From an uncultured Thermoplasmata archaeon (GTDB lineage Archaea > Thermoplasmatota > Thermoplasmata > UBA10834), in assembly GCA_963719945.1 (NCBI GenBank), contig CAVRDX010000004.1, forward strand, positions 181,959-245,958: 64,000 bases of DNA. Reading direction: 5' to 3'. Below the pieces are notes generated by a model. The model had not been told where the DNA came from and searched no databases. It saw only the letters and a list, made by a program, of their open reading frames with translations. The translations under genes and the position numbers were made by a program. Below are positions 576-63,893 of the stretch, one piece after another; position 1 is the first letter of the stretch; each line of letters opens with the position of its first letter.

Positions 576-1631
576 ATGCCTGGAGTGCTCAAAGGTCGAG
601 AAGTCGTGGTGAATGACCAATCCGAGTCGAGTCAGGTCTACAACAAAGGATACTATGGTGTCCCTCAGTCTGGCGGAAGCCTCAAGATGGACATCATGGA
701 AGCCACCTACCTCGTCGAATGCGGGCGGTTGGAGGTCCTGTCCGAGGGAAAACCCGTTGGCGCTGGCGAACTTCTAAGGCTCGCCCACAAGACATCGGAA
801 GGTTTCGAGGTCAGGTATCTGGTGTACAGGGAGCTGAGGCAGAGAGGGTATATCGTGAAGCTCAGCAGCCCCCCACTGGATTTTAGAGTGTTCCCCAGAG
901 GTGGCTCGCCCAACAAGACCCCCAGCAAGTGGTGGGTCGCAGCCATATCCGAACGGTCCACATTCGACCTGGGCGACCTGTTGACCAATCTTGATCACAC
1001 ATCCGATGTCAGGAAGAAGTTGCTCCTGGCAGTCGTGGACGAGGAGAGCGATGTGACATACTATGATGTCAGGCGCATCACTCCAAAGGGCAGGCTGGGT
1101 GCTGTAGACGTCAGCGTTCCATCCGAAGGTTTGCTCATGGCGGACAGGGTCCTCGTGGATGATCAGGATTCGTTGAAGGCATTGCACGGAGGGCACTCCT
1201 TCGGCAAGATGATAGGTGCTGCGCTGCAACTGTCCCTGATCGAGGCGGTCTTCCTGACGGAGCTGGGCGCCCTGAAGCTCAGGGACGCGAAGACGAACCG
1301 TCCGCTCAGCCTCGCGACTCTCAAGAAACGTGCGCGAGCGGTGCAGCCGGATTTCGACCTGCGTCTCGATGCCTTCAAGGACCTGAAGGGGAAGGGATTG
1401 ATTGTCAAGACTGGGTTCAAGTACGGTTCCCATTTCCGCGCATATGAGGGCGACCCTGACAAGCAGCACGCGCGCTTCCTGATCCATGCCGTGCCAGAGA
1501 GCTATACCACCATGTGGCCGGAGGTCAGCAGGGCAGTGCGATTAGCACACGGTGTCAAGAAGGAGATACTCCTGGGACGCGTGAAGAAGGATACGGTCGA
1601 ATATGTCTGCCTTAACCGATTCAGACCGTGA
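576..1631 (+). CDS. endA: tRNA-splicing endonuclease, homodimeric alpha2 type
   Basis: Two tandem endonuclease units; C-terminal unit has KTGFKYGSHFRAY...QHARF...VRLAHGVKK (Tyr/His/Lys triad). Confidence 0.93.
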   Translation: MPGVLKGREVVVNDQSESSQVYNKGYYGVPQSGGSLKMDIMEATYLVECGRLEVLSEGKPVGAGELLRLAHKTSEGFEVRYLVYRELRQRGYIVKLSSPPLDFRVFPRGGSPNKTPSKWWVAAISERSTFDLGDLLTNLDHTSDVRKKLLLAVVDEESDVTYYDVRRITPKGRLGAVDVSVPSEGLLMADRVLVDDQDSLKALHGGHSFGKMIGAALQLSLIEAVFLTELGALKLRDAKTNRPLSLATLKKRARAVQPDFDLRLDAFKDLKGKGLIVKTGFKYGSHFRAYEGDPDKQHARFLIHAVPESYTTMWPEVSRAVRLAHGVKKEILLGRVKKDTVEYVCLNRFRP

Positions 1632-13586: not shown

Positions 13587-14037
13587 GCTTTCGGAATCGC
13601 TCCATTATGCCGAGCCAGTGGGACCCGCGCCAATACACCTTACCGCAACCTCCGCACTTCCAGAACTTGTCGTTGCTCGCAAACGCCCCTTCGGGTACGG
13701 AATCCTTCGCCTCCTCCTTGGGGAGGCTGACCAGCTCTCCGTTGCACTGTGTGCACCTGATGGTATCTTCGCTGAACTTCAAACCGAACTTCTCGCGGAC
13801 CGCTGTCAATTGCGCCTCGAGATCCTCGGTTTCTATCAGCATGGCTCCAGGTTCCTTGGATAGTTCCTTGTCCCTGGTCAGGACGAATCGGTTATCAGCT
13901 TTCGCGGCTGCTGCAATCTGTTTATCATCCATCGTCTTGTCGTAAACTGTATCGTATCCTAACATCCGGAGCCATTTCGCCAGGGATCCAAGCATTTGAT
14001 CCACAGCGAACATCGGCTTCGGCGCATCTTCGCTCAT
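13573..14037 (-). CDS. Mut7-C RNase (PIN plus zinc ribbon) domain protein
   Basis: DQMLGSLAKWLRMLGYDT, LTRD, RCTQCNG, CGGCGKVYWRGSH. Confidence 0.92.
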   Translation of the reverse strand: MSEDAPKPMFAVDQMLGSLAKWLRMLGYDTVYDKTMDDKQIAAAAKADNRFVLTRDKELSKEPGAMLIETEDLEAQLTAVREKFGLKFSEDTIRCTQCNGELVSLPKEEAKDSVPEGAFASNDKFWKCGGCGKVYWRGSHWLGIMERFRKLNLA

Positions 14038-25064: not shown

Positions 25065-25358
25065 GGTAACTCCTCTAGAAATCTGGTCTGTCATTCCCCG
25101 CCCCTTTGACAGAGATATTCTCCTCATTGCTTGACTATTTACTGGATATAATCGCTTTTCGATATGGCCGGCACCAGAAGTCATTCTTCCCGTTCAAGTT
25201 CTTGGCCAAGCCCGCATTGTCTTGTCGTGATGGCATTCAGGAGACGTGCGCGAATGGAATTCGGGCCAGTTCGAGAATCTGAAGGCTATCTGGAATGATA
25301 TATGCAGAAGTCGTCAATAGCCTCGTCCTAGTGCAACTACTCCTCTGATAATTGAGAG

Positions 25359-25430
25359 TGCGGCTGCCGGGATTCGAACCCGGGCTTGAAGCTTGGGAAG
25401 CTTCAGTCCTAACCACTAGACTACAGCCGC
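25359..25430 (-). tRNA. tRNA-Gly(CCC), intronless
   Basis: GCGGCTG/CAGCCGC acceptor stem, GAAGC-TTCCCAA-GCTTC anticodon arm, GGTTCGAATCC T arm; TTTAAA box about 28 nt upstream. Confidence 0.96.
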
Positions 25431-63145: not shown

Positions 63146-63405
63146 CGATGCACCCACAATCTGATCATCTGGCTATGTGTAGAGTCGATGTCAGTCTTGT
63201 CAGCATGTCAAGTCGTGACAATGGTGCAGTTAATAATGTTTGCCCAAGAACACGATTATTATATTCCTATTATTATAGGGCGATACATCAAATATATGCC
63301 GTTCGGTGGAGGAGTCGGCTCAAACCAGTTGATGGGTGAAAGTCATTAAATACTTGAACGAACTACACGGCCTGCTAACGCAGCCTAGGGTATCTACGCC
63401 GCCCA

Positions 63406-63549
63406 GGGCCCGTAGCTCAGCTAGGTAGGAATCTCATGCATTCTCGATGTTATGGTTTCCCTAGAAAGAGCATCTGCCTTTTAAGCAGGTGGCCCGGGGT
63501 TCGAATGACTAAGCCATACAGACTAGTCTCGGAAATCCCCGCGGGCCCG
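63406..63549 (+). tRNA. tRNA-Lys(TTT) with two non-canonical introns (63427-63466 at 20/21; 63506-63535 at 59/60)
   Basis: Removing both inserts gives GGGCCCG TA GCTC AGCTAGGTA GAGC A TCTGC CTTTTAA GCAGG TGGCC CGGGG TTCGAAT CCCCG CGGGCCC G, a complete cloverleaf; both junctions fold as bulge-helix-bulge or bulge-helix-loop. Confidence 0.92.
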
Positions 63550-63635
63550 CCGGGCGTCGAATGCGGACCGATGGAGAAACGGAACGAATCCCACGGTTTC
63601 CATGTGGAATACCCTTCGCCAGTATGGTGATTTGG

Positions 63636-63893
63636 ATGGCCGGAGAATTTAACGTCTTGGAGCATGAGCTCGTACCCGAGCATCATCTTCTGTCGGAGAA
63701 GGAGGCCGAGAAGGTCCTTAAGCAGCTGAAGCTTACGAAGGACCAGCTTCCGAAGACAAGGATAACTGACCCATGCATCCGCACGCTCGATGCGATTGCT
63801 GGGCCAGTCGAAGAGGGAATGGTAGTCAAGATCGTTAGGCGCAGCTCAACGAGCGGCGTGTCGATCTGTTATAGACTTGTAGTGCGGGGGTGA
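63636..63893 (+). CDS. rpoH: RNA polymerase subunit H (Rpo5)
   Basis: HELVPEH.LL, QLPK...DP, VVKIVRRS, YRLV. Confidence 0.95.
   Translation: MAGEFNVLEHELVPEHHLLSEKEAEKVLKQLKLTKDQLPKTRITDPCIRTLDAIAGPVEEGMVVKIVRRSSTSGVSICYRLVVRG

What the first reader, a model, noticed from the sequence alone, without database searches (positions are those of the whole stretch)
63406..63549. tRNA-Lys(UUU) interrupted by two non-canonical introns (D-loop 20/21 and T-loop 59/60)
Seen: intron 1 (63427-63466, 40 nt) has central helix CTAG/CTAG, bulges GT^A and AA^A, and intron helix GGAA/TTCC; its exon side is an internal loop (relaxed BHL type). Intron 2 (63506-63535, 30 nt) has central helix TTCG/CGGA, bulges AA^T and AA^T, exon helix GGGG/CCCC and intron helix GACTA/TAGTC. 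Cutting after the second base of each bulge restores a complete cloverleaf, and there is no 37/38 intron. Established: multi-intron, non-canonical tRNAs are typical of Thermoproteales and ARMAN/DPANN lineages with broad-specificity endonucleases and are uncommon in Euryarchaeota-type genomes. Inference: an easily missed tRNA pointing to extended splicing biology in this lineage. It lies just upstream of rpoH-rpoB, so its processing could shape that mRNA's 5' end.
Basis: partly seen in the sequence, partly recalled or inferred. Interest (0 to 1): 0.85.

Follow-up and report, generated by a model that had tools for sequence, protein, structure and literature searches.

The report
Two-intron lysine tRNA gene, Thermoplasmata
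This is a real lysine tRNA gene that standard gene finders miss because two short introns sit in unusual places, and the same split gene runs through a large group of uncultured Thermoplasmata archaea whose splicing enzyme is of a type usually said to handle only standard introns.

Summary
Removing 63427-63466 (40 nt) and 63506-63535 (30 nt) from 63406-63549 leaves a 74-nt cloverleaf that ARAGORN calls tRNA-Lys(UUU). ARAGORN and Rfam (even at E<=10) see nothing in the unspliced DNA. It is the only Lys(UUU) gene found in this 87%-complete genome and in three closed relatives. Across 19 full-length family homologues, 0 of 74 exon columns vary, against 25 of 71 intron columns, and some intron changes restore pairing. 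Intronless orthologues in other families carry exactly the predicted junction sequences. The unconstrained fold gives the cloverleaf with both introns extruded as bulge-helix-bulge modules. The organism is an uncultured Thermoplasmata. The D-loop intron motif occurs once per genome in 125 of 401 sampled class genomes. My own BHB scan found three more hidden tRNAs in this genome with introns at the same two positions: Arg(CCG), Arg(UCU) and Thr(CGU). The only splicing endonuclease is a single two-repeat (alpha'2) protein in this same window, and it lacks the specific-loop insert linked to broad specificity. RtcB is present. Splicing itself was not observed. The gene is a new member of a known kind in an unexpected lineage and enzyme context.

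The parts
63343..63352 (+). TATA-like box (ATTA[AT]ATA), the putative promoter of the tRNA-Lys(-rpoH) transcript, about 55-60 nt upstream of tRNA +1
   Evidence: It is conserved in all 19 aligned loci of families f1 and f2, while the sequence further upstream is not. Promoter function is inferred.
63406..63426 (+). Exon 1: acceptor 5' strand, U8 A9, D-stem 5' strand, and D-loop up to U20
   Evidence: 0 of 21 columns vary in 19 homologues
63427..63466 (+). Intron 1 (40 nt) at 20/21. It is an HBh'-like motif: central helix CTAG/CTAG, 3-nt bulges, and an in-register intron helix. The D-stem is offset by A14 and G15.
   Evidence: 17 of 41 columns vary and all lie in the intron interior. The same geometry is found in all 16 orthologues solved that carry I1, and the motif is present in 125 of 401 class genomes.
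63467..63505 (+). Exon 2: A21, D-stem 3' strand, anticodon arm (anticodon TTT at 63480-63482), variable loop, T-stem 5' strand, and T-loop up to A59
   Evidence: 0 of 39 columns vary
63506..63535 (+). Intron 2 (30 nt) at 59/60. The T-stem serves as the outer helix, the central helix is TTCG/CGGA, the bulges are 3 nt, and the intron helix is GACTA/TAGTC with one extra opposing base (T63529).
   Evidence: 8 of 30 columns vary. G63532->A turns a G.U pair into A-U in L023/L024, and 63511/63524 change together from A-U to G-C in L018.
63536..63549 (+). Exon 3: U60, T-stem 3' strand, acceptor 3' strand, and discriminator G. CCA is not encoded.
   Evidence: 0 of 14 columns vary
63636..63893 (+). rpoH (RNA polymerase subunit H/Rpb5 C-terminal domain, 85 aa), preceded by the SD-like GGTGA. 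rpoB follows from about 63898.
   Evidence: PF01191 at 6.6e-26. The next ORF matches Rpb2 domains 1-3. The spacer 63550-63635 is variable and has no conserved AT-rich box.
576..1631 (+). endA: the only tRNA-splicing endonuclease gene found in the genome. It is one 351-aa protein with two N+C repeats (alpha'2 architecture) and is the presumed enzyme that removes both introns.

Best explanation
63406-63549 is the functional, single-copy gene for tRNA-Lys(UUU) of an uncultured Thermoplasmata archaeon. It is interrupted by two protein-spliced (bulge-helix-bulge type) introns, one in the D-loop (20/21, 40 nt) and one in the T-loop (59/60, 30 nt). The proposed steps are as follows. Transcription starts from the conserved TATA-like box near 63343-63352, probably as one transcript with rpoH-rpoB (inferred). 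The precursor folds into the cloverleaf with both introns extruded as BHB-like modules (predicted). The genome's only splicing endonuclease, a loop-less alpha'2 homodimer encoded at window 576-1631, cuts after the second base of each 3-nt bulge (inferred from geometry and from the lack of any other EndA). RtcB joins the exons (gene present, role inferred). RNase P/Z-type end processing releases the tRNA from the leader and from the rpoH message (inferred). This two-intron arrangement is not peculiar to this genome. It is conserved through its family and order and is widespread in the class. The same two insertion sites are used in three other tRNAs of this genome.
For: The spliced product is called tRNA-Lys(ttt), and the unspliced DNA is invisible to ARAGORN and to Rfam. 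There is no other Lys(UUU) among the 41 ARAGORN tRNAs or the 42 Rfam tRNA hits of the genome. BLAST of the locus finds no second copy in G000 or in the closed relatives G017, G018 and G020; the only other hit is a 23-nt match to the Lys(CUU) 5' end. In 19 full-length homologues, exons vary at 0 of 74 columns, introns at 25 of 71 and flanks at 20 of 33. Two changes in I2 restore or improve pairing. The intronless Lys(UUU) genes of G031 and G039 show the predicted D-loop and T-loop junction sequences. Other families carry I1 only, I2 only, both, or both plus a strict canonical 37/38 intron. The I1 motif occurs once per genome in 125 of 401 class genomes (37 of 105 genera), with 0 hits to the reversed-pattern control. 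The intron-side helix differs in sequence between families but stays complementary. The MFE fold of the whole precursor keeps the acceptor, D, anticodon and T stems and extrudes both introns. My BHB scan found Arg(CCG) with a 59/60 intron, Arg(UCU) with 37/38 and 59/60 introns, and Thr(CGU) with a 20/21 intron. All three non-canonical introns are strict hBHBh' and each tRNA fills a gap in the isoacceptor set. EndA and RtcB are both present.
Against: No spliced molecule was seen. The four metatranscriptome contig sets I laid show only the unspliced gene of close relatives, which is uninformative for a mature tRNA. Both Lys introns deviate from the strict 3-4-3 hBHBh' motif. Published in-vitro work reports that the alpha'2 enzyme of A. 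fulgidus and the loop-less M. kandleri enzyme remove a D-loop HBh' intron inefficiently (PMC5829648, passages). The genome is 87% complete, so a second, intronless gene in the missing part cannot be formally excluded for this genome. tRNA-Asp(GUC) and a third CAU tRNA were not found, so my scan is not exhaustive or those genes are unassembled.
Confidence: 0.85

Rival explanations
1. The gene and its introns are real, but the plain alpha'2 EndA is not sufficient for the relaxed sites. Removal would then need an extra factor, an obligatory order of events, help from the mature tRNA body, or a nuclease not recognisable as EndA.
For: In I1 the 3' splice site lies in a 3x2 internal loop rather than a bulge, in all 16 I1-bearing orthologues solved. 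EndA lacks the CSL/L1-type insert. A. fulgidus alpha'2 and loop-less M. kandleri EndA process a D-loop HBh' intron poorly in vitro (PMC5829648, passages).
Against: Only one EndA homologue was found in G000 and in 39 of 41 relatives, including three closed genomes. The deviations are mild: one or two opposing unpaired bases, with all helices present. One paper states that homodimeric enzymes can cleave BHL-like motifs (PMC8707768, passage). No candidate cofactor was identified.
Confidence: 0.1
2. The locus is a decaying or inactive tRNA gene disrupted by two insertions, and Lys AAA/AAG decoding is covered by another gene.
For: Standard finders do not call it. The genome is incomplete.
Against: Exons are invariant across the family while introns and flanks drift. 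The BHB geometry is kept across families despite wholly different intron sequences. The same interrupted gene is the only Lys(UUU) locus found in closed relatives. A conserved promoter-like box lies upstream.
Confidence: 0.03
3. The inserts are not removed, and the RNA functions as a tRNA-like molecule with expanded D- and T-loops or as something other than a tRNA.
For: Only unspliced sequence is seen in the RNA-library contigs, which is weak evidence and may partly be DNA.
Against: The inserts would disrupt the D-loop/T-loop elbow (G18-G19 with U55-C56), according to established tRNA structure. The inserts carry splice-motif geometry. Their lengths and sequences vary freely between families, and some families lack them altogether with identical mature sequence.
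Confidence: 0.02

Closest known systems
Methanopyrus kandleri pre-tRNA-Glu(UUC), with a D-loop HBh' intron plus a canonical intron (Kaneta et al. 2018, PMC5829648; abstract, passages and section 16 read)
   Same: It is a euryarchaeal tRNA with an extra intron in the D-loop just before A21, forming a relaxed HBh'-type motif, and the host EndA lacks the specific loop. The fused M. kandleri EndA (PDB 5x89) is the best solved-structure match to this window's EndA (3.8e-36, nearly full length).
   Different: M. kandleri has separate alpha and beta genes, (alpha-beta)2, whereas here there is one two-repeat polypeptide (alpha'2). Here the second intron is in the T-loop, not the anticodon loop. The tRNA is Lys(UUU), and the arrangement is conserved across a large mesophilic-looking MAG clade.
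ARMAN-2 (Ca. Micrarchaeum) pre-tRNA-Cys(GCA) with a 59/60 intron and pre-tRNA-Pro(GGG) with two T-loop introns (Fujishima et al. 2011, PMC3239211; passages read)
   Same: The insertion site is the same (59/60) and the T-stem serves as the outer helix. Strict and relaxed forms both occur.
   Different: ARMAN-2 uses a three-unit epsilon2 EndA with its own specific loop. Here the enzyme is a loop-less alpha'2.
Multi-intron tRNAs of Thermoproteales and other TACK archaea (reviewed in PMC4033280 and PMC8450103; passages read)
   Same: There are up to three BHB introns per tRNA at non-canonical sites, the genes are missed by simple finders, and similar introns sit at the same site in different tRNAs.
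   Different: Those lineages have (alpha-beta)2 EndA with the CSL/L1 loop and far higher intron loads. Here 4 of 44 tRNA genes carry 5 non-canonical introns, at only two sites.
Korarchaeum cryptofilum alpha2 EndA with non-canonical introns (PMC4033280 and PMC3239211; passages read)
   Same: It is a single-polypeptide two-unit EndA in a genome with non-canonical and multiple tRNA introns.
   Different: The korarchaeal enzyme is described as a fusion that keeps the L1 specific loop. It was called the only archaeon with an alpha2 enzyme and non-canonical introns. The enzyme here aligns without that insert.

Membership tests
Archaeal tRNA gene with protein-spliced (BHB) introns | Joined exons form a canonical cloverleaf recognised as a tRNA | tested here: met
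   ARAGORN calls tRNA-Lys(ttt) over the whole 74 nt. Intronless orthologues share the same mature sequence pattern.
Archaeal tRNA gene with protein-spliced (BHB) introns | A bulge-helix-bulge motif (3-nt bulges, 4-bp central helix, flanking helices) at each exon-intron boundary | tested here: met
   It is met in relaxed form. Both introns have a 4/4 central helix and 3-nt bulges. In I1 the outer helix is offset by 2 nt, and in I2 the inner helix is offset by 1 nt. The unconstrained MFE shows both modules as 2-nt bulge / 5-bp helix / 3-nt bulge alternatives.
Archaeal tRNA gene with protein-spliced (BHB) introns | Exons are conserved and introns are free to vary except where pairing is needed | tested here: met
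   0 of 74 exon columns vary against 25 of 71 intron columns, and there are pairing-restoring changes. Helix sequences differ between families but stay paired.
Archaeal tRNA gene with protein-spliced (BHB) introns | Splicing endonuclease and RtcB ligase are encoded in the genome | tested here: met
   EndA. RtcB at G000:C1:636868-638175, 605 bits.
Archaeal tRNA gene with protein-spliced (BHB) introns | The introns are actually excised in vivo | tested here: inconclusive
   Only contigs of RNA libraries were available. No spliced joint was seen, and contigs cannot show absence.
alpha'2 (homodimeric two-repeat) EndA | One polypeptide holds two tandem EndA units, and there are no separate alpha/beta genes | tested here: met
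   The 351-aa ORF has 2x PF02778 and 2x PF01974. The same holds in 39 of 41 relatives, with the other two (84% and 69% complete) showing no hit, and in 10 of 10 further class genomes, two of which have a degenerate or absent first repeat.
alpha'2 (homodimeric two-repeat) EndA | The C-terminal unit is catalytic (Tyr/His/Lys) and the N-terminal unit is structural | tested here: met
   The C-terminal repeat aligns with M. jannaschii EndA and with the alpha part of 5x89, with matching Y, H and K positions in the printed alignments. The N-terminal repeat aligns with the EndA-like (beta) part of 5x89. Residue roles are inferred from alignment only.
Broad-specificity EndA ((alpha-beta)2 with CSL/L1, epsilon2 with ASL/L2, L3-bearing forms) | A specific-loop insert with a conserved Lys in the catalytic unit | tested here: not met
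   The catalytic repeat aligns without an insertion to M. jannaschii 1a79 over residues 10-164, with only a 2-residue gap in the query. A. pernix 3p1z_B has 10 extra residues in the loop region that this protein lacks. Which residues make up the CSL is taken from PMC5829648.
Broad-specificity EndA ((alpha-beta)2 with CSL/L1, epsilon2 with ASL/L2, L3-bearing forms) | Heterotetramer (two genes) or three-unit architecture | tested here: not met
   There is a single two-unit ORF, and no other PF01974 or PF02778 hit at E<=1 in the genome.

The most novel reading that the evidence does not exclude
A loop-less alpha'2 splicing endonuclease routinely removes a relaxed (HBh'-type) D-loop intron and a near-strict T-loop intron from an essential single-copy tRNA across a large part of the class Thermoplasmata. 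In this reading, the current rule that disrupted or multi-intron tRNA genes track specific-loop inserts or (alpha-beta)2/epsilon2 architectures does not hold for this class. Substrate breadth must then come from another determinant. One candidate is the full-length structural repeat, which all sampled intron-carrying families retain.
Probability: 0.5. Interest if true: 0.65.

Novelty: new member of a known kind. Interest (0 to 1): 0.5.

Why it matters
There are three reasons. First, annotation: the only tRNA reading AAA in this clade is invisible to ARAGORN and Rfam. Together with three other hidden tRNAs, it would make these MAGs look as if they lack tRNAs and so look less complete. Second, enzymology: reviews tie non-canonical and multiple tRNA introns to endonucleases with specific-loop inserts, and they describe Cluster II Euryarchaeota as having only alpha'2 enzymes restricted to canonical motifs. 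Here an alpha'2 lineage carries two to three introns in one tRNA, conserved at fixed sites, so the rule can be tested directly with one recombinant protein and one transcript. Third, evolution: the class contains every state of this gene (none, I1 only, I2 only, both, and three introns), which makes it a good natural series for studying intron gain and loss at fixed sites.

Tried and rejected
Expression and splicing evidence. One search listed 23 runs. 20 of them held part of the stretch, 18 of those on record as RNA, 19 with shares of 0.08-0.17 and one run of unrecorded kind with 0.35. I laid four of them, from four studies (X1, X2, X9, X19). Their contigs, 95-99% alike and so from relatives, cover the unspliced gene. 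No joint was reported at either intron. Contigs cannot show a mature tRNA or its absence, so this says nothing either way about splicing.

Other hidden tRNAs. The 13 orphan intact T-arms had no credible acceptor partner. The double-removal candidates 'Met(cat)' at C1:61524 and 'Leu(caa)' at C1:4768 have poor cloverleaves and were rejected. A 'Thr(cgt)' call at C3:341831 was judged implausible and was not inspected. tRNA-Asp(GUC) and a third CAU tRNA were not found by any scan. They may be unassembled or may carry motifs my rules miss.

Automated BHB solver. I gave it 25 loci. It solved 19, two of which are intronless. It returned 'no solution' for 4 (G030, G032, G029, G028) because a central helix had fewer than 4 pairs or did not fit my filters. 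I read the intron states of those four by eye only. It skipped the 2 Lys(CUU) genes (G037, G036).

EndA architecture against intron carriage. All 5 sampled carriers have two full repeats. Of the 5 non-carriers, 3 have two full repeats and 2 have a truncated or degenerate first repeat. G031 lacks the introns but has a full repeat. The sample is too small and too confounded by phylogeny to count as evidence.

Intron contents. By eye, I saw no C/D-box-like motifs in either intron.

Literature. Searches found no paper describing non-canonical or multiple tRNA introns in Thermoplasmata or Methanomassiliicoccales. Searches returned 0 papers. This covers only the held open-access library and my terms. 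Figure 7 of PMC5829648 and the supplementary tables of PMC8450103 (per-genome intron counts) could not be seen and may already list such cases. Marck & Grosjean 2003 (PMC1370505) is not held. PMC9071458 was opened and proved irrelevant.

Full report
WHAT IS THERE. The stretch 63406-63549 splits into exon 1 (63406-63426), intron 1 (63427-63466, 40 nt), exon 2 (63467-63505), intron 2 (63506-63535, 30 nt) and exon 3 (63536-63549). The joined exons are 74 nt, and ARAGORN calls them tRNA-Lys(ttt) over their whole length. The same program finds nothing in the unspliced DNA, with or without its anticodon-intron mode. On the window, ARAGORN and Rfam at gathering score report only tRNA-Gly(CCC) at 25358-25430. 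A permissive Rfam scan of 63250-63700 at E<=10 returns nothing. The whole-genome tRNA model search lists 42 hits at E<=10, none at this locus.

In standard numbering the introns lie between U20 and A21 and between A59 and U60. Two details should be added. In intron 1, the D-stem (GCTC/GAGC) is separated from the central CTAG/CTAG helix by the unpaired A14 and G15. The 3' cut site therefore lies in a 3x2 internal loop, which is an HBh'-like motif. In intron 2, one extra base (T63529) faces the 5' bulge. Sequence alone allows the cuts to slide, by +1 for I1 and by -2 to +1 for I2, without changing the product.

IS IT REAL? Five lines of evidence agree.

(1) Uniqueness. The window is G000:C4:181959-245958, in a 1.78-Mb genome of 4 contigs that is 87% complete. 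ARAGORN finds 41 tRNAs and no Lys(UUU); Lys(CUU) is present with a canonical intron. BLAST of the locus against G000 and 40 relatives finds, beyond the locus itself, only a 23-nt match to the 5' end of Lys(CUU). That includes the single-contig genomes G017, G018 and G020.

(2) Conservation pattern. In 19 full-length homologues from four genera of the family (one partial row left out), 0 of 74 exon columns vary. Against that, 17 of 41 columns vary in I1, 8 of 30 in I2, and 20 of 33 in the flanks. G63532->A changes the G.U pair of the I2 central helix to A-U in two loci. Positions 63511 and 63524 change together from A-U to G-C in another locus.

(3) Intronless orthologues. I extracted Lys genes from 20 further loci across 15 families of the class. 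G031 and G039 have uninterrupted Lys(UUU) genes whose D-loop and T-loop read exactly as the predicted junctions. G038 has only I1, while G035 and G028 have only I2. Families f1 and f2, plus G033 and G030, have both. G040, G034, G032 and G029 have both plus a 37/38 intron, making three in all. A Lys(CUU) gene in G037 also has a 59/60 intron.

My solver reproduced 19 of the 25 loci given to it. The other four Lys(UUU) loci were read by eye and the two Lys(CUU) genes were skipped. All 16 solved I1 copies share the same geometry: central helix 4/4, inner helix in register, and D-stem offset by 2. Of the 16 solved I2 copies, 4 are strict hBHBh' and 12 have the one-base offset or a similar one.

(4) Class-wide motif. 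A pattern for the I1 boundaries hits exactly once per genome in 125 of 401 sampled genomes (37 of 105 genera). Among genomes at least 90% complete it hits 54 of 259. The reversed-pattern control gives no hits. The printed matches show many different intron helices that remain complementary. Several large, high-completeness families have none among those searched (f6 0/48, f19 0/43).

(5) Folding. Without constraints, the 144-nt precursor folds into acceptor, D, anticodon and T stems with both introns extruded. The energy is -56.9 kcal/mol with z = -3.22, and 0 of 200 shuffles fold as well. In the MFE each 5' bulge is drawn as 2 nt next to a 5-bp helix, a near-isoenergetic alternative to the 3-4-3 form.

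GENOME CONTEXT OF THE PHENOMENON. I wrote a SPLITS-like scanner that requires a 4-bp central helix and 3-nt bulges, with one flanking helix in register and the other allowed a small offset. It produced 129,362 candidates on both strands, of which 16,297 were strict, and it recovered both Lys introns. I spliced candidates singly and in 314,287 pairs and re-ran ARAGORN. That revealed three more tRNAs that had been missing or mis-typed.
- Arg(CCG) at C1 has a 26-nt strict intron at 59/60.
- Arg(UCU) at C3 has a 24-nt canonical intron and a 22-nt strict 59/60 intron.
- Thr(CGU) at C4:108101-108204 has a 29-nt strict intron at 20/21. ARAGORN had called it Gly(gcc).

Leu(UAA) was also recovered. It has a canonical intron and had been mis-typed as Ser. 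By my count, the genome has 44 tRNA genes. 16 of them contain introns, with 13 canonical introns and 5 non-canonical ones, and all 5 non-canonical introns sit at just two sites. Asp(GUC) and a third CAU tRNA were not found.

THE ENZYME. The only hits to the EndA catalytic and N-terminal domains in the genome lie in one 351-aa ORF inside this same window (576-1631). It contains two N+C repeats. Of the 41 genomes in the relatives search (G000 and 40 relatives), 39 show the same single two-repeat ORF, including the three closed genomes. The two without a hit are 84% and 69% complete. Ten further class genomes also have a single ORF. The best solved-structure match is the fused M. kandleri enzyme 5x89, followed by M. 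jannaschii, A. pernix alpha and A. fulgidus.

The C-terminal repeat aligns with M. jannaschii EndA over residues 10-164 with no insertion. A. pernix alpha has 10 extra residues at the position of the Crenarchaea-specific loop that this protein lacks. The enzyme is therefore an alpha'2 type without the L1/L2-type insert, and there is no sign of a C-terminal (L3) insert relative to M. jannaschii. RtcB is present. Record titles of the 29 closest EndA loci all name uncultured Thermoplasmata, Thermoplasmatota or euryarchaeal MAGs.

WHAT THE LITERATURE SAYS. All papers below were read as passages unless stated otherwise.
[quoted passage not shown] It says Cluster II Euryarchaeota exclusively encode alpha'2. 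It reports that species with EndA inserts show increased tRNA gene disruption. It also reports that A. fulgidus alpha'2 and loop-less M. kandleri EndA remove a D-loop HBh' intron inefficiently.
- Fujishima & Kanai 2014 (PMC4033280) list multi-intron tRNAs in Euryarchaeota only for M. kandleri and M. thermautotrophicus. They call K. cryptofilum the only archaeon with an alpha2 enzyme and non-canonical introns.
- Fujishima 2011 (PMC3239211) documents 59/60 introns in ARMAN-2.
- Tocchini-Valentini 2021 (PMC8707768) states instead that homodimeric as well as heterotetrameric forms can cleave BHL-like motifs, so the field is not unanimous.
- tRNAscan-SE 2.0 (PMC8450103) searches for such introns, mostly found in Crenarchaeota and Thaumarchaeota. 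Its per-genome tables are supplements I could not see.

Seven word searches found no description of this in Thermoplasmata.

NEIGHBOURHOOD. Downstream lie rpoH (PF01191, 63636-63893) and rpoB (Rpb2 domains), confirmed. Upstream are a flavodoxin-like ORF and a 65-aa ORF. A TATA-like box at about 63343-63352 and the roughly 30-nt leader are conserved in all 19 f1 and f2 loci aligned. The 86-nt tRNA-rpoH spacer is variable, with no conserved AT-rich box and no T-run of 4 or more, only the SD-like GGTGA. RNA-library contigs of relatives join the unspliced tRNA to rpoH in two studies: X9 with a 986-nt contig and X1 with a 270-nt contig. A contig does not prove a single transcript, and DNA carry-over is possible. 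Co-transcription is therefore plausible but inferred.

VERDICT. Mechanistically it belongs to a known kind, the BHB-intron tRNAs. What is new is the setting: a euryarchaeal class with a loop-less alpha'2 endonuclease, in which a two- to three-intron Lys(UUU) gene with fixed insertion sites is widespread. Splicing itself, and the competence of this enzyme on the relaxed D-loop site, remain to be shown.

Noticed in passing
G000:C1:~495528-495620 (+); G000:C3 minus strand, intron at + coordinates 13658-13679; G000:C4:108101-108204 (-): There are three more hidden or mis-typed tRNAs with non-canonical strict-BHB introns. Arg(CCG) has a 59/60 intron of 26 nt. Arg(UCU) has a 37/38 intron of 24 nt and a 59/60 intron of 22 nt. 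Thr(CGU) has a 20/21 intron of 29 nt, and ARAGORN calls it Gly(gcc). The two Arg 59/60 introns resemble each other at both ends, which suggests common descent or copying between paralogues.
   Followed up: partly
G000:C1:832711-832818 (+): ARAGORN's intron mode types this gene as Ser(tga). After removal of a 22-nt BHB intron it is Leu(taa), which fills another isoacceptor gap.
   Followed up: partly
whole genome G000: No tRNA-Asp(GUC) was found by any scan, and only two CAU tRNAs were found where initiator, elongator Met and Ile2 would need three. They may be unassembled (the genome is 87% complete) or disrupted in a way my rules miss.
   Followed up: partly
window 63397-63403 and 63553-63559: The leader CGCCGCC is complementary to the trailer GGCG[T/G]CG, which would extend the acceptor stem of the precursor. 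In L023/L024 the trailer reads GGCGGCG, giving perfect pairing. This may be a processing stem.
   Followed up: no
window 63375-63405: The roughly 30-nt 5' leader of the tRNA is almost as conserved across the family as the exons, much more so than the 3' spacer. The reason is unknown.
   Followed up: no
window 63467: A 270-nt contig from RNA library X1 begins exactly at the first base of exon 2, which is the predicted 3' cut of intron 1. It then runs through intron 2 into rpoH. Contig ends are not RNA ends, so this is only a curiosity.
   Followed up: no
window 63427-63445: The 5' half of intron 1 (AGGAATCTCATGCATT...) is nearly invariant within the family, while the 3' half varies. That is more conservation than the BHB motif alone requires.
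   Followed up: no
G000:C3:13268-13443 (-): tRNA-Trp(CCA) has a 102-nt anticodon-loop intron and lies about 200 nt from the Arg(UCU) gene. Long tRNA-Trp introns in other Euryarchaeota encode a C/D-box guide RNA (recalled, not tested here).
   Followed up: no
class genomes G050, G060, G039, G035 versus the D-loop-intron carriers: The first (structural) EndA repeat is truncated or degenerate in some families that lack the D-loop intron. It is full-length in all sampled carriers. The pattern is confounded by phylogeny and has counter-examples: G031, G044 and G079 have a full repeat but no intron.
   Followed up: partly
window 25358-25430 (-): This is an ordinary intronless tRNA-Gly(CCC), the only tRNA that standard tools report in the window.
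   Followed up: yes
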